Positions 5,633-44,491 of a DNA stretch of 64,000 bases are shown here, piece after piece. Origin of the DNA: an uncultured Dehalococcoidales bacterium. Lineage in GTDB: Bacteria; Chloroflexota; Dehalococcoidia; GIF9; UBA5629. The translations under genes were made by a program, and so were the position numbers. The notes beneath the pieces are model-generated. The model saw nothing but the letters and a program-made list of their open reading frames with translations. It ran no database searches and was not told where the DNA came from. The stretch covers positions 139,919 through 203,918 of the forward strand of contig CAYNVO010000001.1 in assembly GCA_964400675.1 (NCBI GenBank). Reading direction: 5' to 3'. Each line of letters starts with the position of its first letter. Positions within the stretch are counted from its first letter, which is position 1.

Positions 5633-5759
5633 ACAAAACGTCAAAAAGTGCATCTGGTGAGAATCTTGTAGAAGGGACTGGAGTTTAGTAAACTTACCCC
5701 AACTTTATAGTGATTCATGATTGGTTTCACGATTATCTAATGTTTGGAGGTGGGAGACA

Positions 5760-6209
5760 ATGATAGACCAGAAAAAGCAAGTCGCAAAAGAGGCCAAGCG
5801 TGAAGAGAAGCGCATTGCGGAAAAAGCTGCGCGACTAGCCAGAGAGCAGGCAAGAAGAAAAACTGATCTGGCCAGAGAGCAAGCGATTCAAAAAGAGCAA
5901 GCAGCAAGAGGGGCCAAGCGTGAAGAGAAGCGCATTGCGGAAGAACCTGCGCGACTAGCCAGAGAGCAGGCAAGAAGAAAAACTGATCTGGCCAGAGAGC
6001 AAGCGATTCAAAAAGAGCAAGCAGCAAGAGGGGCCAAGCGTGAAGAGAAGCGCATTGCGGAAGAACCTGCGCGACTAGCCAGAGAGCAGGCAAGAAGAAA
6101 AACTGGTCTGGCTAGAGAACAGGCAATAGCCGAAGATCAGGAGGCGAGAAGGCGAGAAATCGAAAAAGCGAAAATCAACCACCAGAATAAGCTAAAGAGG
6201 TATGGGTAG
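5760..6209 (+). CDS. hypothetical highly charged coiled-coil protein built from perfect 40-aa tandem repeats (KREEKRIAE.ARLAREQARRKTDLAREQAIQKEQAARGA)
   Basis: ORF 5721..6209; RBS ggaggtggga precedes the ATG at 5760. The DNA contains 2.6 copies of a 120-bp unit, each encoding 40 aa in frame. Confidence 0.5.
   Translation: MIDQKKQVAKEAKREEKRIAEKAARLAREQARRKTDLAREQAIQKEQAARGAKREEKRIAEEPARLAREQARRKTDLAREQAIQKEQAARGAKREEKRIAEEPARLAREQARRKTGLAREQAIAEDQEARRREIEKAKINHQNKLKRYG
5792..6110. repeat. tandem direct repeat, 120-bp unit x about 2.6 (copies 1 and 2 differ at about 3 positions; copy 3 diverges in its last third)
   Basis: The unit starting ggccaagcgtgaagagaagcgcattgcgg recurs at 5792, 5912 and 6032. 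Confidence 0.9.
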
Positions 6210-6227
6210 TAGGCAAGCCTGTGCATC

Positions 6228-6372
6228 GTTTGCAATTGCGCCTCATTTAGTATACACTAGAAGAGGTGGTTTTTAGTTTACGTTACTTCTTACTTGCCTA
6301 GATCCTCTTAGATTTTTCCAAGTTTCGGGTGACCATAACTCTAACCAACTATTTTAAAAGAGGAGGTCATCC
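6228..6372 (+). promoter_or_regulatory. putative promoter (TTGCAA-N15/17-TATACA/TACACT) plus a conserved long 5' leader of zinc-ribbon gene copy 1
   Basis: The segment aligns with 7588..7734 upstream of paralog 2: shared ttagtRtaYaStagaagWggtggtt...ggtgacc..aactc.aaccaacta...aagaggaggtcatccaATG. Confidence 0.4.
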
Positions 6373-6564
6373 ATGAGTTTCGAAGATAAATCGATTCAGT
6401 GTTCCGATTGTGGTACTACCTTTAGCTTCACTTCCGGGGAACAGGAATTCTTTGCATCTAAAGGTTTTACCAACGAACCTAAGCGTTGTGTTCAGTGCCG
6501 AAGAGCTAAGAAACAACAGAATAGTGGTTCAACCAACTATGCGTTCAGCGACAGTAGAAGATAA
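6373..6564 (+). CDS. small CxxC...CxxC zinc-ribbon protein (paralog 1 of 3)
   Basis: 63 aa; SIQCSDCGTTFSFTSGEQEFFASKGFTNEPKRCVQCRRAKK. Strong RBS aagaggaggtcatccATG. Paralogs at 7735 and 22549. Confidence 0.65.
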   Translation: MSFEDKSIQCSDCGTTFSFTSGEQEFFASKGFTNEPKRCVQCRRAKKQQNSGSTNYAFSDSRR

Positions 6565-6589
6565 GTCAAATAATAGTTGACTTGACCTT

Positions 6590-6634
6590 GAGGACATACA
6601 TAGGCCCGAAATTGTGTGGCTTATGTGTGTCCTC
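6590..6634 (+). terminator. conserved hairpin downstream of the zinc-ribbon gene (stem gaggacatacataggcc / ggcttatgtgtgtcctc); terminator or RNA-stability element, no U-tract
   Basis: An imperfect 17-bp inverted repeat sharing the ACATACATAGGCC core with the hairpin at 7955..7990. Confidence 0.4.
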
Positions 6635-6799
6635 ATACAAGCTGTTAACGAGGAGCTTTGATAAAATGATAGATACTCTTAACAGCGACCATGGTAATTT
6701 GGGAAACAGTGTACCTCTGGTAGAACTGCGTACATGTCATTCCGTACTTAGTTGATTACATATACTTTTTCATCTCGTTACACAAAAAGGAGCGGGAAA

Positions 6800-6991
6800 A
6801 TGAAGTTTGATAAAAGTAAGGGTTTTTGCAATGGGCTTTATGTTCACAATGGAGGATGTGAGGTTACCTTTCATTCATTGAAGCATACAAATAGTGAGGT
6901 TACTATAAGAAACTGTAAAAAGTGTACTTGTCCTTTAGCTAGAAGCCATAGGCAACAATATTCTGATGAAAAAAGAGGGATTATTAAATAA
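6800..6991 (+). CDS. hypothetical small Cys-rich protein (63 aa) in an AT-rich segment
   Basis: RBS aaaaaggagcgggaaaATG at 6800. MKFDKSKGFCNGLYVHNGGCEV...CKKCTCPLA has 6 Cys. Local GC is well below the window average. Could be spurious. Confidence 0.3.
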   Translation: MKFDKSKGFCNGLYVHNGGCEVTFHSLKHTNSEVTIRNCKKCTCPLARSHRQQYSDEKRGIIK

Positions 6992-7381
6992 GGATAAAAT
7001 GACATTTGGATGATTTAATGATGCGAAACAATTCAGTAAGACCTGATATTGACAAAAAGTATCGTGTACATATCATCGTGGAGGTCACTAGTTCTAGATC
7101 CATCCTTAACAACCAGCCAATTTGTGTATAAGAATGGAAGAGCTTAAATATACATTTTTTACCATACTAAATATTTCTATTACGAGAGGCCATTTGATCT
7201 TAAGAATTCAATGAGCTCCGAAGATGATATGGCCTCTCCAAGCATAACTTGAGTTAACTCACGAAAATAAAGGAGTATCTCTGCAACAACTTGTGCTTCA
7301 ACCATAGACCCTGTTTTCCCGTTTTGATCTGTGTAATTAAAGGCCACCCCAGACTTAGTATCAGAAAGCACTTTAATCGCT

Positions 7382-7451
7382 GCGGCAATGAGGATTACCT
7401 CAGGTGGATTGATGACGAGGTTAGGGAAGGCTGAACAAAACGTCAAAAAGT
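7382..7451. repeat. 70-bp direct duplication of the cutA 3' end (copy of 5580..5649; 1 mismatch), including the stop codon and 17 nt downstream
   Basis: ggcaatgaggattacctcaRgtggattgatgacgaggttagggaaggctgaacaaaacgtcaaaaagt is present at both sites. Confidence 0.9.
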
Positions 7452-7587
7452 TACTACTTAGGCAACAAAAAGACCCACCGTGCAGGAGTAAGCAATAATT
7501 CATGTCATTAGTGTTAAGCAAGCGAAGGCTCCTTGGATTTGACCATGGCAATCTTTCTTATTGGGAAGCTTGTCCAGGCTTTTGCAA

Positions 7588-7734
7588 AGCGGGGCGTTTT
7601 AGTGTATAGTAGAAGTGGTGGTTCCAGTTTAGGTTATCACGTACTTAGTTAAATTACTTTAGATTTACCCAACTTACCCAAGCTCCGGATGACCCCAACT
7701 CCAACCAACTACTCGTAAGAGAGGAGGTCATCCA
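7588..7734 (+). promoter_or_regulatory. putative promoter (TTGCAA-N17-TATAGT) plus a conserved long 5' leader of zinc-ribbon gene copy 2
   Basis: Aligns with 6228..6372; the same RBS context aagagaggaggtcatccaATG. Confidence 0.4.
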
Positions 7735-7941
7735 ATGAGTTTCACAGATAAATCGATTCTCTGTCCCGATTGCGGGACCACCTTCACCTTCACTGCTGGG
7801 GAACAAGAATTCTTCGCGTCTAAAGGCTTTACCAACGACCCTAAGCGTTGCCCTCAGTGCCGACAGGCTAAGAAACAACAGCGCGGCGATTCACAAGGTG
7901 GCTACAGCCACAGCAGCACCAGACTTAGTAGGGAATACTAG
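7735..7941 (+). CDS. small CxxC...CxxC zinc-ribbon protein (paralog 2 of 3)
   Basis: 68 aa; SILCPDCGTTFTFTAGEQEFFASKGFTNDPKRCPQCRQAKK. About 75% identical to paralog 1 over the N-terminal 45 aa. Confidence 0.65.
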   Translation: MSFTDKSILCPDCGTTFTFTAGEQEFFASKGFTNDPKRCPQCRQAKKQQRGDSQGGYSHSSTRLSREY

Positions 7942-7954
7942 TTTGGCTTTAAGC

Positions 7955-7990
7955 ACATACATAGGCCGGGGGTACGTGGCCTATGTATGT
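7955..7990 (+). terminator. perfect 13-bp stem hairpin (acatacataggcc / ggcctatgtatgt) between the zinc-ribbon gene and the RRM gene
   Basis: Inverted repeat read directly; the same core as the hairpin at 6590..6634. Confidence 0.45.
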
Positions 7991-8023
7991 TACACAGCGT
8001 GCTAATAGAAGGAGGAGCAAAAC

Positions 8024-8317
8024 ATGAATATCCACGTGGGCAACTTATCGGCTGATGTAACTGAAGAGGAACTGCGGGAGGAGTTCAAGGCTTTTGGAGG
8101 AGTCACTTCCGTAAACATCATAAAAGACAAGTACAGCGGGCAATCCAGGGGATTTGGCTTTGTTGAAATGCCATCTAAGCCTGAAGCCGAAGCTGCAATT
8201 GCCGGCCTCAAAGGAAAAACGCTGAAGGATAGGACGCTCGATGTTAATGAGGCTCGCCCTCGCTCCGACAGCAGAGGCGGAGGGTTTAGCGGAGGAGGCA
8301 GACAGAGAAGATACTAA
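8024..8317 (+). CDS. RRM-type RNA-binding protein with a Gly/Arg-rich tail
   Basis: 97 aa; MNIHVGNLSADVTEEELREEFKAFGGVTSVNIIKDKYSGQSRGFGFVEM carries RNP2 (IHVGNL) and RNP1 (RGFGFVEM). C-terminal RGGGFSGGGRQRR. RBS aggaggagcaaaacATG. Confidence 0.85.
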   Translation: MNIHVGNLSADVTEEELREEFKAFGGVTSVNIIKDKYSGQSRGFGFVEMPSKPEAEAAIAGLKGKTLKDRTLDVNEARPRSDSRGGGFSGGGRQRRY

Positions 8318-8687
8318 ATCGCGTCCTCATCTACAGGCTTAAGACATATAGTATTGATACTTAGCATACAACTGACCGAACAAGCGGGGGTTAGTACATT
8401 GTCGATGGTAATAGAATGATAATCGCGCCAGGATAGAGCGCTTTTATTCTCTTTTAATTATGAAAGACAACGGTGGTCTAAACTCTGAAGACATCCTAAG
8501 CATGAGGTCTGAGGTTGAGTCACTTACACTTCCCAAGACAGCTTGAGACACTTTTCACGACGAGGAGACAGAAGAAGATATTACCGAATCTGACTCTTCT
8601 TGGGAAGCTGAAGAATCTGCTGACCTTGAAGATGAGTGGAGAGATAAGGATGAGTGGAGAGATAAGACAGAAAGAGGAGCTAAGTCT

Positions 8688-10007
8688 GTGCCTGGGCCTA
8701 AAGTAGAGCCTTGGGAACAGCCGGTTGATGACCCGATTGTCATGTATCTCCACGAGATCGGCAAAGTCTCGCTTCTCACCGTAAACGATGAGAAGGTATT
8801 AGCCGGCAAATTAGAAGAAGCCAAGTATCTGGCAAAGATTGAAGGTCTTAGTCCTGAGCAACATGGCAGATATTCCCAAGCGGTTAGCACGACAATCTAT
8901 CTGCTTCGTCACTTACTTGCAGCCCGGCCCATGGTTGATATTCTTGTCAAGCGCTTTGAAATTGCCACGACAGATAGCCTCATCCAGACAATTCGCAATC
9001 CCAAACTGCGGGCGGCTATCAACGGTGTAATCGACCCGGAACTGGTGAAAGCTATTACCGAAGCCAATGGCAAAAGTATCTCAGAGGTTGGGCTAAGCTT
9101 GATATACCTTTCGATAGATAACCGGCTTTTGCCTTCGGAACTACTGGAGAGCATGGTAGACGGAACCTCCTGGAGCCAGATGGAGTCTTGGGTGGCCGAG
9201 CCCGTTAATCTTGAATTCCTTTCCCAGCTTCGTGCTAAGAGCCAGCAGCTTAAAGCCCACTTCAGTGAGGTTAAAAGAACGGCAAGTGAGGCAAAGAAAC
9301 AGCTTATTGAAGCAAATTTGCGCCTGGTTGTGAGTGTCGCCAAGAAATATACCAGACACGGAATACCATTTCTGGACCTTATTCAGGAAGGAAACATTGG
9401 CTTATTCCGGGCTGTGGACAAATTCCAATACAGGAAAGGTTATAAATTCAGCACTTACGCTCATTGGTGGATTAGACAAAGTATTACCCGCTCTATAGCT
9501 GATCAATCCCGTACTATTCGTATCCCAGTGCACATGGTAGAAATTATCAATAAGTTATATAAGACCATTCGTAGCCTGGTTCAAGAGTATGGGCGTGAAC
9601 CAAGCTGCGAGGAAATTGGCAGAGCCATGGACATCCCTTCAGAAAAAGTAAGGGAGGTCTTGAAATTATCTAGAATGCCGTTGTCTTTAGAGGCTCCTGT
9701 TGGCGAAGAGGGAGACAGCGAGCTCGGTGATTTTGTTGAAGATCGAACTACCCTGCCGCCAGCCGAGGCTGCCTCACGAGAATTACTTAAGGCGCAACTA
9801 ATCAAGGTACTTTCTGAACTCAGTGACCGGGAGAGAAGGGTTTTATTGCTCAGGTTTGGTTTAGAGGATGATAGACCCCGAACTTTAGAGGAGGTGGGGA
9901 AGGAGTTCAATCTGACCCGGGAGCGAATCCGCCAGATCGAGGCCAAGGCATTGCGCAAGTTGCGCCATCCCAGCCGCAGCCGGAAACTCAAAGACTACCT
10001 GGAGTAA
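8688..10007 (+). CDS. rpoD: RNA polymerase primary sigma factor (sigma-70 / RpoD family)
   Basis: Region 1.2 [17 protein letters not shown], region 2 ...[34 protein letters not shown], and a region 4 HTH. The ORF starts with GTG at 8688 (see the finding on the upstream in-frame acidic segment). Confidence 0.9.
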
Positions 10008-10225
10008 GCTCACAGGGCACTGCGGGCACAAGGAAAAATCAGAAGAAGTCACTAGGGCTATTCTGGATCTGTTGAGCATCTAAAAGCGCCATGTGAGAGT
10101 AAACATTTAGCCAGAGTGTTTAAAGCAGCGTCCGCATACACTCTAATCTAAGAGAGGACTTGACAAGCCGCATTGCAGCGAAATAAAACTGCCTCCACGA
10201 AAATCTCTTTATAACGATGATCTTC

Positions 10226-12100
10226 TTAGCCCCCCATTTCAGGCACACAGTTGTTCTTAAGCTCCTCTTCTAAATAGTTTGCCTCTTTGTAAACTCGTTC
10301 TACATCGTCTAACCTGAATCGTTCTTGGGGTATCTGTTCATAAATACTTTTCACACTGTCAGCCAGTTCCTTCGCTTCACCAATTAGCCCCTTTGTCATC
10401 TTTCTGTTGCATCCTCTGCGGGCAAGTATAGCCAATCCCAAATTACATTGAGCAATGCGAACTTTGCTTTGGGCAATCATCCTCGGATCGCGCAAGCGCT
10501 CTCTAATTCCCATCGCCTCGTGGTAGGTCTTAAGGGCGCTGCTAAATTCCTCTTCCGCTTTAACAAAGTTCTCTAAGCTCATGAGTTCCTCGGCTAGGAA
10601 TTGGTGCACAAACGCCATGTTGTGCAAAGTCTGACCATAATGAGCCGGTTCACTAGTTTGTCTGAATTGCTCAGCATATTTCCCCAGTTCCTTGATCAAC
10701 CAGCTTCTCCAGCCTGGAGGAGCGAAATCATCTACGTGGCTGCCCATAATATTTTTTGTAGCTCTTGTTGCGTTCATGAATTCCTGAAAAAGAGTGTAAG
10801 CCAGCTCTGGATCGTCGATCAAGGTTCGGAGTCTTGCTGATTCACCAAGAACTACTTTAGCCTTTACATGGTCACCAGCATTTTGCAATATAATACCGTA
10901 TTCATGGAGTGCCCAACCAAGAAGCTTTTGCAACCTCTTTCGAAGGTCCCTGTCTCTTGTCTGTGCTAATGTAGTTTCAATATCGTCTACTACTTTATAG
11001 GACTCTTGCGGTGAGCCCGTTGCAATTGTGCGCCTTATATAGGCCAAGCGTGCCTGGACCTCTAAGTTCATAATTACGTCAGAAGACTCACTCAAAAAAC
11101 GTTCGTAAGCATCCTTGGCTGGCTCGTGCCTGATGTCGCCCTCATAAACTTGGTAGATACGCAGATAGTCAAGAATACGAGCCCAGAGTAGCCTCACCTC
11201 CTTCTTGGATTGGTGCCATAAATCAATCCCCCAGCTTTTCAATTTCGCCTCCCACCAGTCTTTTGGATTACTTGGGCATTGTGTTTGCCAAATATCAAGT
11301 TCTGGATCTGATTCACCTTTGTTAACCTTCTGGTAAACTTTCTGGAAAAACTCATCAACGTCAACTTTGATGGACATATAATGTTTGTCATCTAGTCGTT
11401 TTTTGACATCCCGATCAATGTCACTTCGTACAAGCCATATAACGTTTCGAGGATTTGCTTCCTCGAATAGGACTGGGATAATATCAAACTCATCTGCACC
11501 ACGGTATCCTGCAACTACCACGATTCGGTTTTTCAACATGTCCACGGCTTTCTGCCTCAAATTAGCTTCCAGCGGGGCAAAGATTTGATTAATGGTAAAA
11601 CGTGCGTGTGTGATGTCAATTAAGGTTCCATGCAGCTTTAAGAGCAAGTCTCTATATGGCTCTTTTGAAGATATTCCAAGATTACTACGGTACTTCCAGC
11701 CAGCTGCTTCCTCGATGAGTTCATCATAATTCGTCGTTAGAACAACGTTCCTAAACTCCTTCATCACCCATGCGAGGAATTTATGGGTGGTGCTATAGGA
11801 ATTAGTAGCCATACAAATTTTGATTGCCTTCGTCGCGTTATCGAGCCCTATAACCTGCACCATCTGATAAAGAATAACCTCATTAAAGAGTAAACCCATA
11901 TGAGGCTTTACGTATTGCACCTCATCTTCGCCTTCTTCTCCGGCTATCGCCTCGAGAAGCGACAAAACGAGGTCTGACCATAATGGAACCCAAGATTGCC
12001 GTTCGGCACTAATTCCCGCTCCCACTAGAAACGCTACTTGGCCATCTTGCACTGCCTTGGTCACTTCTGAGACAATTGACTGTTCGTTTTTCACAGACAC
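10226..12100 (-). CDS. SIR2-like (SIR2_2/DSR-type) NADase-domain protein with a roughly 390-aa uncharacterised alpha-helical C-terminal domain
   Basis: 624 aa. The N-terminal 230 aa carry VAFLVGAGISAE...VVLTTNYDELIEEA...LLKLHGTL...RIVVVAGYRGADEFDI, i.e. the GAGxS, N-D and K-x-HG catalytic pattern of defence-associated SIR2 domains (ThsA/DSR-like). The C-terminal domain is Trp-rich and helical with no motif I recognise. Confidence 0.75.
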   Translation of the reverse strand: MSVKNEQSIVSEVTKAVQDGQVAFLVGAGISAERQSWVPLWSDLVLSLLEAIAGEEGEDEVQYVKPHMGLLFNEVILYQMVQVIGLDNATKAIKICMATNSYSTTHKFLAWVMKEFRNVVLTTNYDELIEEAAGWKYRSNLGISSKEPYRDLLLKLHGTLIDITHARFTINQIFAPLEANLRQKAVDMLKNRIVVVAGYRGADEFDIIPVLFEEANPRNVIWLVRSDIDRDVKKRLDDKHYMSIKVDVDEFFQKVYQKVNKGESDPELDIWQTQCPSNPKDWWEAKLKSWGIDLWHQSKKEVRLLWARILDYLRIYQVYEGDIRHEPAKDAYERFLSESSDVIMNLEVQARLAYIRRTIATGSPQESYKVVDDIETTLAQTRDRDLRKRLQKLLGWALHEYGIILQNAGDHVKAKVVLGESARLRTLIDDPELAYTLFQEFMNATRATKNIMGSHVDDFAPPGWRSWLIKELGKYAEQFRQTSEPAHYGQTLHNMAFVHQFLAEELMSLENFVKAEEEFSSALKTYHEAMGIRERLRDPRMIAQSKVRIAQCNLGLAILARRGCNRKMTKGLIGEAKELADSVKSIYEQIPQERFRLDDVERVYKEANYLEEELKNNCVPEMGG

Positions 12101-12226
12101 AATTCTACTGCTGAGACTAGGCTGAACACAACATCGGAAAGTGTACCCGACACCTGATCAAGTTCTGACTCAGGCTTCTTTGGGCGGTATTAGCGGTGGA
12201 GAGGGTAAAAAAGAAGGTTCGCTAAG

Positions 12227-12367
12227 CTAACTCTTGCCGATGCGGAACATCTTGGTGCCGCAGACCGGGCAGACACCCTGGGTTGCGGGTTTACCACTCT
12301 TCATCTTTACGCTTTTGGCGTCCTTCATTTCTCTCTTGGTGCGGCACTTCATACAGTAGGCTTGCAT
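12227..12367 (-). CDS. small CxxC...CxxC zinc-ribbon protein (46 aa), co-oriented 127 bp upstream of the SIR2 gene
   Basis: Reverse translation MQAYCMKCRTKREMKDAKSVKMKSGKPATQGVCPVCGTKMFRIGKS. Strong RBS GGGGAGGAACGAA before the ATG at 12367. Too short for the ORF track. Confidence 0.55.
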   Translation of the reverse strand: MQAYCMKCRTKREMKDAKSVKMKSGKPATQGVCPVCGTKMFRIGKS

Positions 12368-12483
12368 TTCGTTCCTCCCCTTCTGTCGATTTAGCGGGCA
12401 GAATACCAGAGAATGGCTGAAACGTCAACGACCACTTTATGCTCTCGGTTGTGGAGATTAAGTTTCTTCGATGTACCACACTG

Positions 12484-12507
12484 GGGTCACCCCGGGGAGT
12501 TTTTTAT
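12484..12507 (+). terminator. GC hairpin ggggtcaccccgggg followed by tttttta; intrinsic-terminator-like, plus-strand orientation
   Basis: Palindrome and T-tract read directly. There is no annotated plus-strand gene upstream, so it may terminate an unannotated transcript. Confidence 0.35.
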
Positions 12508-13003
12508 GTTTATTAGCGCCAGGATGCTTGTACAATGCCTGCAGAGGTACGTTCATAGATAGAATTTATAGTTTTTATAGTATAGATAGATTGTATTTAT
12601 CTTGGAGACCAGCAAGCGTTTCAGATCTCCAGTATCATAGGATAAAGCCCGCTCGATGACTTCGGTGGACAAAAGACACCGCTCTGGTTTTTATGGCGGC
12701 AGGTAGTGCAGAAAGATTAGGCAGTCCACAGGCAAAGCACGGGCAGTTAATTCGCCCTGAGAGGGGTGACCCCCTTCGGGAGAGCTATATAGGACATCTC
12801 TAAAAAGCTGCCTGCCAAGCTAGAGATGGCAGGAAACCGCCTAGCTAACTGACTAGTATCTGGCAGATCCACGCCATAAACTGCCTAGCTAAAAGGCAGC
12901 TAGTTGGCAGCTAACTGCCAAAAATTGCCTAAATCTGGCAGCTGACCTGCCACCAACAGGCAGGAATGACCCCTTGCAATTTTCCCTTACTATACAGAGG
13001 GAA

Positions 13004-13255
13004 GTTCGGAGTTCGTAGCTGGAGGTTCGTAGCTGGCCACCGAACTCACAACTCGCCAGCTACGAACTAGCTACGAACTTTAAGGAAATTAGTAACTTTT
13101 TGTATTTGGGTTTCTTACGCTGGCCACCGAACTTCCGGCTCATCAGCTACGAACTAGCTACGAACTTTAGGTGAAATTAAACACTTTTTGTATTTGGGTT
13201 TCTTAGTGGGACACCGAACTCCTGGACCACCAGCTACGAACTAGCTACGAACTAT
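13004..13255. repeat. complex repeat block: an inverted copy (agttcgtagctgg x2) at 13004-13036, then about 2.5 tandem copies of an 87-89-bp unit, each carrying cagctacgaactagctacgaact and ctttttgtatttgggtttctta
   Basis: Units start at 13033, 13120 and 13208. The 11-bp core AGCTACGAACT is itself doubled within each unit. Confidence 0.85.
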
Positions 13256-13625
13256 GAAAGCAACAAGGCAGTGGAGAGGAAAGGGTAACTCATTGCTGCG
13301 CTCCTTGCACTAGCGGTGCTTTGTTGCTAAAATCCAAGACTGGAGGGCTAAGTGGCAAGGCGGAAAGCCAGGGCAAAAGTTCTTCTTTCCGTCCAGTAAG
13401 CCCCACCGTGCTAGATTCGAACCATAGCGGTGACCAGCTTAACCACGACGCGGATTGCACAAGCCATCGTTTTGTGCAGGAGATAGAAGCTACTGAGCTG
13501 ATAGCGTGCCTGAGGCTTCACGCCACTCATCCTCTAATATTCTTTTGTTGCTCTTGCCCTAGATAGTCAATTACACTATATTAGCTATTTCATAAAGGGA
13601 TTTTTGCCGGGAAGGAGTTATTGAT

Positions 13626-14285
13626 ATGGATGTAATCGAAGCCATAAGCAAGCGTAAGAGCATAAGGGGATATAAGCCTGAGCCAGTTCCGATGGAAATA
13701 CTGAAAAAAGTCCTGGAGACTGCTGCGCATTCGCCGTCGGCGATGAACACACAGCCGTGGGAGGTCACTGTCGTCAGCGGCGAAACGCTTGATAAGGTGA
13801 GAAGCGCCAATATCGAGATGCTGAAGTCTGGAGCGGAAATCTGGCGCAGTTTTTCTTTTCAGGGCGCTTACAGGCAACGCCAGGTGGACCTGGCGGTTCA
13901 AATCTTTAAGCTCATGGGGATAGCCAGAGAGGACAGGGAGAAAAGAACACAATGGCTGGAAAGAGGCTTCCGCTTTTTCGATGCCCCGGCAGCTATAATT
14001 TTGTCGGTAGATAGCTCGGCACCGGAATCGCTGGCGTTGCTTGATATAGGGGCATTTTGCCAGAGCATCTGCCTGGCTGCACCGGAGTATGGCCTCGGCA
14101 CCTGCATTGAAGACCAGGGGACGGCGTTCCCGGAGGTGCTTAGAAGGTTCATGGGTATACCTGAGTCAAAGCAGATAGTGATAAGCATCGCCATCGGCTA
14201 TCCGGACTGGGATTTCCCGGCGAACAAGCTGGAGACCGACCGTGAGCATATCGATAGTTTCACAACCTGGTGCGGCTTCGATTGA
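13626..14285 (+). CDS. nitroreductase-family protein (FMN-dependent)
   Basis: 219 aa; KRKSIRGYKPEPVPMEILKKVLETAAHSPSAMNTQPWEVTVV is the nitroreductase fold signature. Confidence 0.85.
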   Translation: MDVIEAISKRKSIRGYKPEPVPMEILKKVLETAAHSPSAMNTQPWEVTVVSGETLDKVRSANIEMLKSGAEIWRSFSFQGAYRQRQVDLAVQIFKLMGIAREDREKRTQWLERGFRFFDAPAAIILSVDSSAPESLALLDIGAFCQSICLAAPEYGLGTCIEDQGTAFPEVLRRFMGIPESKQIVISIAIGYPDWDFPANKLETDREHIDSFTTWCGFD

Positions 14286-44322: not shown

Positions 44323-44482
44323 GAGATTCTTCGCTCCGCTCAGAATGACAGGTTGGAGGGTTCAGAATGACAGGTTGGAGGGTTCAGAATGACAGGTTGG
44401 AGGGCTCAGAGTGACAGATGGGAAGGGCTCGGAATGACAGACGGGAGAGGGTGCAGAGAGGCAGACGGGAGGGGCTTAGAAT
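44323..44482. repeat. REP-like right arm (gagattcttcgctccgctcagaatgacag) followed by about 7 degenerate tandem copies of its 22-bp half-site (gttcagaatgacaggttggagg)
   Basis: Tandem array read directly, 3' of the MBL gene. Confidence 0.85.
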
Positions 44483-44491
44483 GACGGGCAG

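What the first reader, a model, noticed from the sequence alone, without database searches (positions are those of the whole stretch)
10226..12367. Stand-alone SIR2-like NADase protein with an unknown C-terminal domain plus a co-oriented mini zinc-ribbon gene: candidate single-protein defence module
The 624-aa protein (minus strand) has an N-terminal domain matching defence-type SIR2 (SIR2_2). Seen in sequence: GAGIS at residues 27-31; TTNYDEL with the invariant N-D pair; KLHG with the catalytic His. This is the NAD+-depleting effector domain of Thoeris ThsA, DSR1/DSR2, SIR2-HerA, SPARSA and Avs5. The remaining roughly 390 aa form a Trp-rich helical domain with no motif I can assign. It is not SLOG, not a STAND NTPase (no Walker A), and not HerA. 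A 46-aa CxxC..CxxC zinc-ribbon gene with a perfect GGAGG RBS sits 127 bp upstream in the same orientation. The pair lies between convergently arranged rpoD and a nitroreductase and is followed by a 1.1 kb repeat-rich non-coding region. This architecture (SIR2 plus a novel sensor domain, 624 aa) does not match any named system that I can place from sequence alone.
Basis: partly seen in the sequence, partly recalled or inferred. Interest (0 to 1): 0.78.

Follow-up and report, generated by a model that had tools for sequence, protein, structure and literature searches.

The report
Stand-alone SIR2–TPR candidate defence NADase
This gene encodes a rare, unnamed one-protein combination of an NAD-destroying "immune sirtuin" domain and a TPR-like repeat sensor, most likely an anti-virus suicide switch of the DSR type, and the tiny zinc-ribbon gene next to it is an unrelated neighbour.

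The parts
10226..12100 (-). Complete SIR2-TPR gene (624 aa, GTG start, no obvious Shine-Dalgarno sequence)
   Evidence: ORF. There are 76 homologues, mostly 600-635 aa. The AlphaFold2 model has pLDDT 93.0 and pTM 0.90.
11315..12100 (-). N-terminal SIR2_2 (immune-type sirtuin) domain, residues about 1-262. It contains GAGIS 27-31, T122/N124/D126, K155/H157/G158 and GYxGxDxFD 198-206.
10250..11257 (-). C-terminal TPR-like alpha-solenoid, residues about 282-617, about 14 helices. Conserved motifs include LWARIL, LLGWxLHxxGxxLQ, FQxFMN, HNxAFxxQ and RLRDPRMIAQS.
12227..12367 (-). Adjacent 46-aa DUF5679 zinc-ribbon gene. It is judged NOT to be part of the module and is listed only because the finding included it.
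   Evidence: PF18930 scores 57.3 bits. It has its own promoter-like site at 12428-12400. It is absent next to every other family member. A 78%-identical orthologue is free-standing in L094.

Best explanation
The gene encodes a single-polypeptide, DSR-like abortive-infection module acquired by horizontal transfer. The C-terminal TPR-like solenoid holds the N-terminal SIR2 domain inactive. When the solenoid binds an infection-derived ligand, most likely a phage protein or peptide captured in its groove, the protein changes conformation and/or oligomerises. The SIR2 domain then hydrolyses NAD+ to ADP-ribose and nicotinamide. This depletes NAD+ and aborts phage or mobile-element replication.

In a subclade found elsewhere, but not in this window, a dedicated catalytic NUDIX domain is fused or adjacent. 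It presumably acts on the ADP-ribose-type product or on NAD+ itself.

Shown here: the domain identities, the intact catalytic residues, the predicted fold, the family's rarity and patchy distribution, the absence of any conserved partner gene, the defence and mobile contexts of relatives, and the gene's absence from syntenic relatives. Inferred: NADase activity, ligand-triggered activation, oligomerisation, anti-phage function and the role of NUDIX.
For: - SIR2_2 scores above the Pfam cut-off.
- N124, D126, H157 and the GAGIS and GYxGxD motifs are invariant across 47 sequences that are as little as 28% identical.
- The closest solved relatives of the N-terminal domain are mainly defence NADases (DSR2, KomC, SPARSA-Sir2, ThsA, SIR2-HerA, Avs5), plus human FAM118B.
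- The Zn module and the GIPxFR loop of deacylase sirtuins are absent.
- SIR2 followed by an alpha-solenoid sensor is the architecture of DSR2, where the C-terminal domain detects phage and activates the SIR2 (PMC11850899; 10.1101/2024.02.11.579819; 10.1101/2021.12.14.472415).
- Several family loci are defence or mobile contexts:
  - L001 has McrBC, a SIR2-STAND protein and a type III REase (E 6e-157) with its methylase.
  - L087 has IS66, a MkoA-like helicase and a BrxP/SspD/DndC-like gene.
  - L084 has a transposase, a ZorD/DpdE/DrmD-like SNF2 helicase and a methylase.
  - L089 has RHS, IS1 and AIPR genes.
  - L091 has a second SIR2 protein.
  - L177 has a type II R-M pair nearby.
  - L176 lies inside a Mu-like prophage.
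- No partner gene is conserved across 12 loci.
- The family is scattered across bacterial and archaeal phyla.
- The gene is absent downstream of rpoD in relatives with 84-87% DNA identity, and homology stops 7-22 nt after the rpoD stop codon.
- The gene's GC content is slightly low, z=-1.2.
Against: - There are no experimental data for any family member.
- The window's own neighbours are housekeeping genes, as are those of L002 and L178.
- Both flanks of the conserved zf_Tbcl-RRM-rpoD block are rearranged in relatives. The gene's absence there is therefore not a clean insertion or deletion.
- The TPR-like domain is nearly as conserved as the SIR2 domain, with mean pairwise identity 0.35 against 0.38 and many invariant polar residues. 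This is unlike fast-evolving phage-protein sensors. It fits better with a conserved ligand or an intramolecular or oligomer interface.
- No effector swapping was seen on this sensor.
- No full-length member was found in IMG/VR, and no PADLOC system model matches.
- The count of defence contexts comes from 12 loci, with no background statistic.
Confidence: 0.6

Rival explanations
1. It is a regulatory or housekeeping NAD-dependent enzyme. The TPR domain recruits a cellular protein substrate, and the SIR2 domain deacylates or ADP-ribosylates it. The target could lie in stress or NAD(P) metabolism, and there is no role in immunity.
Against: The protein lacks the Zn module and cofactor-binding loop of deacylase sirtuins. 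By sequence it is closest to immune NADases, not CobB, and NCBIfam gives no hit. The family is extremely rare and patchy, with 44 clusters in 1.84 billion representatives. It is absent from close relatives of the host. Several loci are clear defence islands or a prophage.
Confidence: 0.15
2. It is a mobile-element-borne weapon or addiction module rather than host immunity. A phage or island carries it to exclude competitors (superinfection exclusion), or it acts as a toxin that stabilises the element. The copy in the window would be a stranded remnant of such an element.
For: P0044 sits between the methylase and the terminase of a Mu-like (pro)phage, in the same orientation as the phage genes. 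Transposases flank several copies. The window copy lies at a synteny breakpoint beside a 1.26-kb repeat-rich non-coding stretch.
Against: No integrase, transposase or att-like tRNA fragment lies near the window copy. No full-length member is present in IMG/VR or BFVD. This reading overlaps mechanistically with the best explanation: the biochemistry is the same and only the beneficiary differs.
Confidence: 0.15
3. The SIR2 domain is catalytically inert or acts only as an NAD/ADPR-binding sensor, and the protein serves as a scaffold or regulator.
For: The Pfam score is modest (34 bits), and many relatives score only 'weak' or 'faint' for SIR2_2.
Against: All catalytic residues are invariant across the family. 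The active-site region of the model has pLDDT above 90.
Confidence: 0.05

Closest known systems
DSR2 (defence-associated sirtuin 2, Bacillus subtilis)
   Same: It is a single polypeptide with an N-terminal immune-type SIR2 followed by an all-alpha solenoid, and it has no NTPase. The DSR2 SIR2 domain is the best sequence match among solved structures (E 1.4e-10, query residues 7-205) and the top Foldseek hit.
   Different: DSR2 is about 1000 aa, with a MID domain and a HEAT-like C-terminal domain that binds phage tail tube protein (PMC11850899). This protein is 624 aa, and its solenoid is TPR-like (LGN/Rap/MalT class). No homology was detected outside the SIR2 domain, and no DSR model appears among the PADLOC hits.
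DSR1
   Same: It is a single SIR2-domain defence protein with a C-terminal sensing region (10.1101/2021.12.14.472415; 10.1101/2024.02.11.579819).
   Different: The two are not detectably homologous beyond SIR2, and no DSR1 model appears among the PADLOC hits at E<=1. The protein here is much shorter.
Thoeris ThsA
   Different: ThsA has a C-terminal SLOG/STALD domain that binds gcADPR and needs a TIR protein, ThsB. Here the C-terminus is TPR-like, and no TIR gene lies within +-10 kb.
Avs5 / SIR2-STAND (AVAST type 5)
   Same: It has an N-terminal SIR2 effector and C-terminal repeat sensors, and Foldseek finds it (9nc9, 9jap).
   Different: Avs5 has a central STAND NTPase. None of the 47 family members has a Walker A motif. 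A true SIR2-STAND gene sits next to the family member in L001 as a separate gene.
RRNPP / MalT-domain-III / LGN-type TPR receptors
   Different: There is no sequence-level membership, because Pfam TPR hits are below threshold. There is no HTH or phosphatase output domain; the output here is SIR2.

Membership tests
Pfam SIR2_2 (PF13289), immune-type sirtuins | Profile score above the gathering threshold | tested here: met
   34.1 bits against a cut-off of 24.5, residues 119-206.
Pfam SIR2_2 / defence NADases | Catalytic Asn and His plus the Rossmann GxGxS motif are conserved | tested here: met
   G27-S31, N124, D126 and H157 are invariant or nearly invariant in 47 sequences.
Pfam SIR2_2 / defence NADases | NAD+ hydrolase activity that depletes cellular NAD+ | not testable with these tools
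   This needs an enzyme assay or LC-MS of infected cells.
Canonical sirtuin deacylases (CobB/Sir2/SIRT) | Four-Cys zinc-binding module and the GAGxSxxxGIPxFR cofactor loop | tested here: not met
   There is no CxxC, the SIR2 domain contains a single Cys, and there is no GIPxFR. NCBIfam gives no hit.
DSR2 | SIR2 domain homologous to that of DSR2 | tested here: met
   The family profile matches DSR2 chains at E 1.4e-10 over query residues 7-205.
DSR2 | About 1000 aa with MID and HEAT-like C-terminal domains homologous to DSR2 | tested here: not met
   The protein is 624 aa. The sequence match stops at residue 205. The C-terminal domain aligns with TPR proteins. Full-length Foldseek TM-scores are only 0.18-0.30.
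DSR2 | Activation by phage tail tube protein | not testable with these tools
   This needs binding or activation assays.
Thoeris (ThsA/ThsB) | C-terminal SLOG/STALD domain and a neighbouring TIR gene (ThsB) | tested here: not met
   The C-terminus is TPR-like. PADLOC ThsA hits cover only the N-terminal part of the model. No TIR gene lies within +-10 kb.
Avs5 / SIR2-STAND | Central STAND NTPase with a Walker A motif | tested here: not met
   No [GA]x4GK[ST] motif in any of 47 members, and no NTPase Pfam hit.
SIR2-HerA (Nezha) and SPARSA (SIR2-APAZ/pAgo) | An adjacent HerA helicase gene or a short pAgo gene | tested here: not met
   Neither is present in the window's neighbourhood. No ORF family is shared between any two of the 12 family loci.
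TPR superfamily | Tandem helix-turn-helix repeats that form a right-handed superhelix | tested here: met
TPR superfamily | Sequence-profile match above the Pfam threshold | tested here: inconclusive
   TPR_2, TPR_12 and TPR_14 score 14.5-15.7 bits, below their cut-offs. Some relatives do pass.
Anti-phage defence systems (operational definition) | Enrichment in defence islands or mobile elements, with variable presence among relatives | tested here: inconclusive
   At least 6 of 12 independent loci have defence or mobile-element neighbours. The gene is absent at the syntenic site in two relatives. No genome-wide background statistic was possible, and the window's own context is housekeeping.
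Two-gene module with DUF5679 | The small gene co-occurs with the family | tested here: not met
   DUF5679 is found only on the window's own contig and, free-standing, in L094.

The most novel reading that the evidence does not exclude
SIR2-TPR(-NUDIX) is a distinct, previously unnamed immune family of uncultivated anaerobic bacteria and archaea. Its unusually conserved TPR-like pocket senses a conserved, non-protein or peptide infection signal rather than a variable phage protein. In the NUDIX-bearing forms, the second enzyme destroys ADP-ribose or ADPR-PP. Phages then cannot rebuild NAD+ through NARP1-type pathways, which would make the NUDIX a built-in counter to a phage anti-defence.
Probability: 0.15. 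Interest if true: 0.75.

Novelty: new variant of a known kind. Interest (0 to 1): 0.5.

Why it matters
If the defence role is confirmed, this would add a compact (624 aa) SIR2 defence protein with no NTPase to the DSR group. It comes from lineages where almost no immunity has been tested experimentally (Dehalococcoidia, Bathyarchaeia, methanogens, Planctomycetes). Its sensor domain is unusually conserved, so the trigger may be identifiable. The NUDIX-fused relatives suggest a directly testable idea: some NAD-depleting systems may also remove ADP-ribose to block phage NAD+ reconstitution. If the defence role is not confirmed, this is simply one more uncharacterised SIR2_2 protein.

Tried and rejected
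- DUF5679 as a partner gene: rejected. It is absent from every other family locus, and its orthologue is free-standing in a close relative.
- Any other conserved partner: none found. An all-vs-all BLASTP of 662 ORFs within +-4 kb across 12 loci gave no cross-locus hit.
- Effector swapping on the TPR-like sensor: not seen. Every full-length hit checked carries SIR2_2.
- An RNA gene, tRNA or att remnant in the 1.26-kb upstream region: no tRNA, no Rfam hit even at E<=1 and no phage DNA match.
- A NUDIX partner in the window: none. No Nudix box occurs in the 64 kb.
- NUDIX substrate assignment: failed. Only the Nudix box aligns to characterised enzymes.
- Full-length members on viral contigs or in BFVD: none.
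- Literature: no paper uses 'SIR2-TPR', and there is no relevant paper on DUF5679.
- AFDB Foldseek: the library was unavailable.
- The closest relative's contig (L094, 97.7% DNA identity) ends 106 nt past rpoD, so it cannot show whether the gene is present there.

Full report
**1. Observation**

The minus-strand ORF at 10226-12100 (624 aa, GTG start) and the 46-aa ORF at 12227-12367 exist exactly as described. The quoted motifs are present: GAGIS at residues 27-31, LTTNYDEL with N124 and D126, and KLHG with H157. The GGAGG upstream of the small gene is there, and the gap between the two genes is 126 nt. rpoD (8688-10007, +) is convergent with the large gene. The nitroreductase (13626-14285, +) lies beyond a 1258-nt non-coding stretch on the 5' side of the pair.

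The window matches a 90.7-kb metagenomic contig (ENA ERZ27248961). Its RpoD is 84-97% identical to those of Chloroflexota/Dehalococcoidia MAGs. The identical protein was also assembled from other sequencing runs.

**2. The N-terminal domain**

- Pfam SIR2_2 scores 34.1 bits against a cut-off of 24.5.
- In a 47-sequence family alignment reaching down to 28% identity, the following are invariant or nearly invariant: G27-A28-G29-I30-S31, T122, N124, D126, K155, H157, G158 and G198-Y199-x-G201-x-D203-x-F205-D206.
- The domain has no CxxC, no zinc module and no GIPxFR cofactor loop. NCBIfam models do not hit it.
- A family profile searched against PDB sequences finds mostly defence NADases: DSR2 (E 1.4e-10), KomC (2e-9), SPARSA Sir2 (7e-6), ThsA (1.6e-5) and SIR2-HerA (2e-4). 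It also finds human FAM118B at 2.5e-4.

**3. The C-terminal domain**

The AlphaFold2 model built from the family alignment is confident (pLDDT 93.0, pTM 0.90). Residues about 282-617 form about 14 long helices.

None of the 47 family members has a Walker A motif. This excludes a hidden STAND NTPase.

**4. The family**

The word-indexed search found 76 homologues, mostly 600-635 aa. Sources label them as coming from Dehalococcoidia, Bathyarchaeota and Euryarchaeota.

It also found a more distant SIR2 + canonical-TPR protein.

A profile of the C-terminal domain alone, run exhaustively against 1.84 billion representatives, found only 44 clusters at E<1e-30. In every full-length hit the domain starts at about residue 270-330. 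All ten newly found full-length hits that I scanned have an N-terminal SIR2_2. This sensor was therefore found only joined to SIR2, with no effector swapping.

The two domains are about equally conserved, with mean pairwise identity 0.38 for SIR2 and 0.35 for TPR. Many invariant polar residues lie in the TPR part.

**5. A NUDIX-bearing subclade**

Five representatives are SIR2-TPR-NUDIX fusions of 829-876 aa: P0059, P0204, P0208, P0214 and the Stieleria protein. The four whose sequences I read (P0059, P0204, P0208, P0214) have an intact or near-intact Nudix box.

In L091 a stand-alone 211-aa NUDIX gene immediately follows the SIR2-TPR gene. It is the same lineage as the fused domain: 34-35% identity over 170-200 residues, E about 1e-25. 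This is a true fusion/fission linkage.

The NUDIX substrate cannot be assigned from sequence. The window has no Nudix box anywhere, so it carries the minimal form.

**6. Genomic context**

An all-vs-all comparison of 662 ORFs within +-4 kb of the gene in 12 independent loci found no gene family shared between any two loci. The family behaves as a single-gene module.

The neighbourhoods vary, and several are typical of defence or mobile regions:

| Locus | Neighbours |
|---|---|
| L001 (Stieleria) | McrBC component, the fusion, an Avs5-like SIR2-nSTAND protein, type III REase (PADLOC E 5.9e-157), methylase |
| L087 | IS66 transposase, MkoA-like helicase, BrxP/SspD/DndC-like PAPS reductase |
| L084 | DDE transposase, Schlafen/AlbA-type protein, ZorD/DpdE/DrmD-like SNF2 helicase, NOV_C, methylase |
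| L089 | RHS, IS1, AIPR |
| L091 | a second SIR2_2 protein |
| L177 | MvaI/BcnI-type endonuclease and methylase within about 7 kb |
| L176 | inside a Mu-like (pro)phage, between a methylase and the terminase, portal and MuF genes |
| L002, L178, the window | housekeeping genes |

**7. Synteny around the window copy**

The zf_Tbcl-RRM-rpoD block (window about 7577-10029) is conserved at 84-98% DNA identity in three relatives. In the two informative ones, homology stops 7-22 nt after the rpoD stop codon. There the downstream genes are HD_5, AF_0334 and HpaB, with no SIR2 gene. The nearest relative's contig ends too early to tell.

The SIR2 gene has slightly low GC content: 0.446 against 0.487 +- 0.033, the fourth lowest of 41 genes.

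The gene is therefore accessory and sits at a rearrangement breakpoint. This is not a clean indel, because both flanks differ.

**8. The zinc-ribbon gene**

The small gene is Pfam DUF5679 at 57 bits, and it has its own promoter-like site. tblastn finds it next to the SIR2 gene only on the window's own contig.

It is absent from all other family loci. In L094, a relative with 97.7% DNA identity, a 78%-identical orthologue is a free-standing gene with its own promoter-like and terminator-like signals, about 4.4 kb on the other side of rpoD and with no SIR2 gene beside it.

It is a neighbour, not a component.

**9. Mechanism**

By analogy with DSR2 and DSR1, where a C-terminal region detects phage and switches on an N-terminal SIR2 NADase (10.1101/2021.12.14.472415; 10.1101/2024.02.11.579819; PMC11850899), I propose three steps:

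- The TPR-like solenoid binds an infection-derived ligand.
- Binding releases or assembles the SIR2 domain.
- The SIR2 domain then depletes NAD+.

The steps shown here are domain identity, the intact active site, the predicted fold, single-gene behaviour, patchy distribution and defence or mobile contexts. The steps inferred are catalysis, the trigger, oligomerisation and the phenotype.

The strong conservation of the sensor is a real oddity. It points to a conserved ligand or to an intramolecular or oligomer interface rather than to a fast-evolving phage-protein receptor.

For the NUDIX forms, one attractive but untested idea rests on two published observations. Phage NARP1 rebuilds NAD+ from ADPR via ADPR-PP, and the NUDIX enzyme NudC cleaves ADPR-PP (10.1101/2024.02.11.579819). 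A linked NUDIX domain might therefore remove the substrate for reconstitution.

**10. Comparison with known systems, and novelty**

The protein works most like DSR2 or DSR1, but it is not a member of either. Homology to DSR2 ends with the SIR2 domain. The protein is 624 aa rather than about 1000 aa, and its solenoid is TPR-like rather than HEAT-like.

It fails the defining features of Thoeris (no SLOG domain or TIR partner), Avs5 (no NTPase), SIR2-HerA and SPARSA. PADLOC v2 gives only partial, weak domain hits. No paper in the searchable library uses the term 'SIR2-TPR'.

I rate it a new variant of a known kind. It is a plausible and testable candidate, but it is not a conceptual surprise, because SIR2 effectors fused to repeat sensors are an established theme. 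I set interest at 0.5. The NUDIX linkage and the conserved sensor raise it, and the lack of any functional evidence, the small context sample and the housekeeping surroundings of the window copy lower it.

Noticed in passing
window 12368-13625 (core 13005-13258 and 12894-12944): This is a 1258-nt non-coding stretch. The 11-mer AGCTACGAACT occurs 8 times within 250 nt: three tandem pairs spaced 87 nt apart inside three 87-bp direct repeats, plus two inverted copies. About 0.6 copies are expected in the whole window. A second cluster of TAGCTGCC-like motifs lies nearby. There is no tRNA, no Rfam hit at E<=1 and no phage DNA match. It could be an iteron-like or transcription-factor-binding array, but its function is unexplained.
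   Followed up: partly
L001 1953-4646; L089 4643-7132; L091 5285-7975; proteins P0204, P0208, P0214: A subclade of the family carries a C-terminal catalytic NUDIX domain, or a NUDIX gene of the same lineage immediately downstream. The substrate is unknown. This is a possible two-step NAD+/ADPR-destroying variant.
   Followed up: partly
L176 4652-6562: A family member (P0044, 39% identical) lies inside a Mu-like (pro)phage, in the same orientation as the phage genes. It sits between a DNA methylase and the terminase, portal and MuF genes.
   Followed up: partly
L001 5898-8342 and L091 7959-10286: In two loci a second, different SIR2_2 protein sits within one or two genes of the SIR2-TPR gene. 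One is a SIR2-nSTAND5 protein of 814 aa, and the other is a 775-aa SIR2 protein.
   Followed up: no
L025 9929-12337 and L120 7370-8995: This is a distant (23% identical), 802-aa SIR2_2 protein with a canonical TPR_12 array. In L025 a Macro-domain gene and two LMW phosphatase genes lie just upstream. It may be an independent SIR2+TPR invention or a far relative.
   Followed up: partly
loci L006-L078: Dozens of Asgard (Promethearchaeota, Hodarchaeota, Hermodarchaeota, Thorarchaeota) contigs encode proteins that share only the SIR2 domain (residues about 20-223, 23-30% identity). Their C-terminal architectures were not examined.
   Followed up: no
proteins P0241, P0250, P0256, P0257, P0261, P0262, P0277, P0278, P0280, P0283: These are roughly 225-260-aa proteins that match profile positions about 60-330 of the TPR-like domain in one stretch (E 1e-10 to 1e-19). 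They may be stand-alone relatives of the sensor domain, or they may be fragments.
   Followed up: no
window 6200-7700: This is a low-GC (0.38-0.43), ORF-poor stretch. It contains a second, diverged copy of the zf_Tbcl gene region (6246-6531, about 76-78% identical to the copy at about 7600-7900 in relatives). It lies on the other edge of the conserved zf_Tbcl-RRM-rpoD block.
   Followed up: no
window 5772-6118: A 120-bp tandem repeat with 2.9 copies at 96% identity lies inside the ORF 5721-6209. It encodes a Lys/Glu/Ala-rich repeat.
   Followed up: no
window 44338-44485: An intergenic tandem array with a 22/44-bp period and 3-4.6 copies (consensus GCTCAGAATGACAGGTTGGAGG).
   Followed up: no
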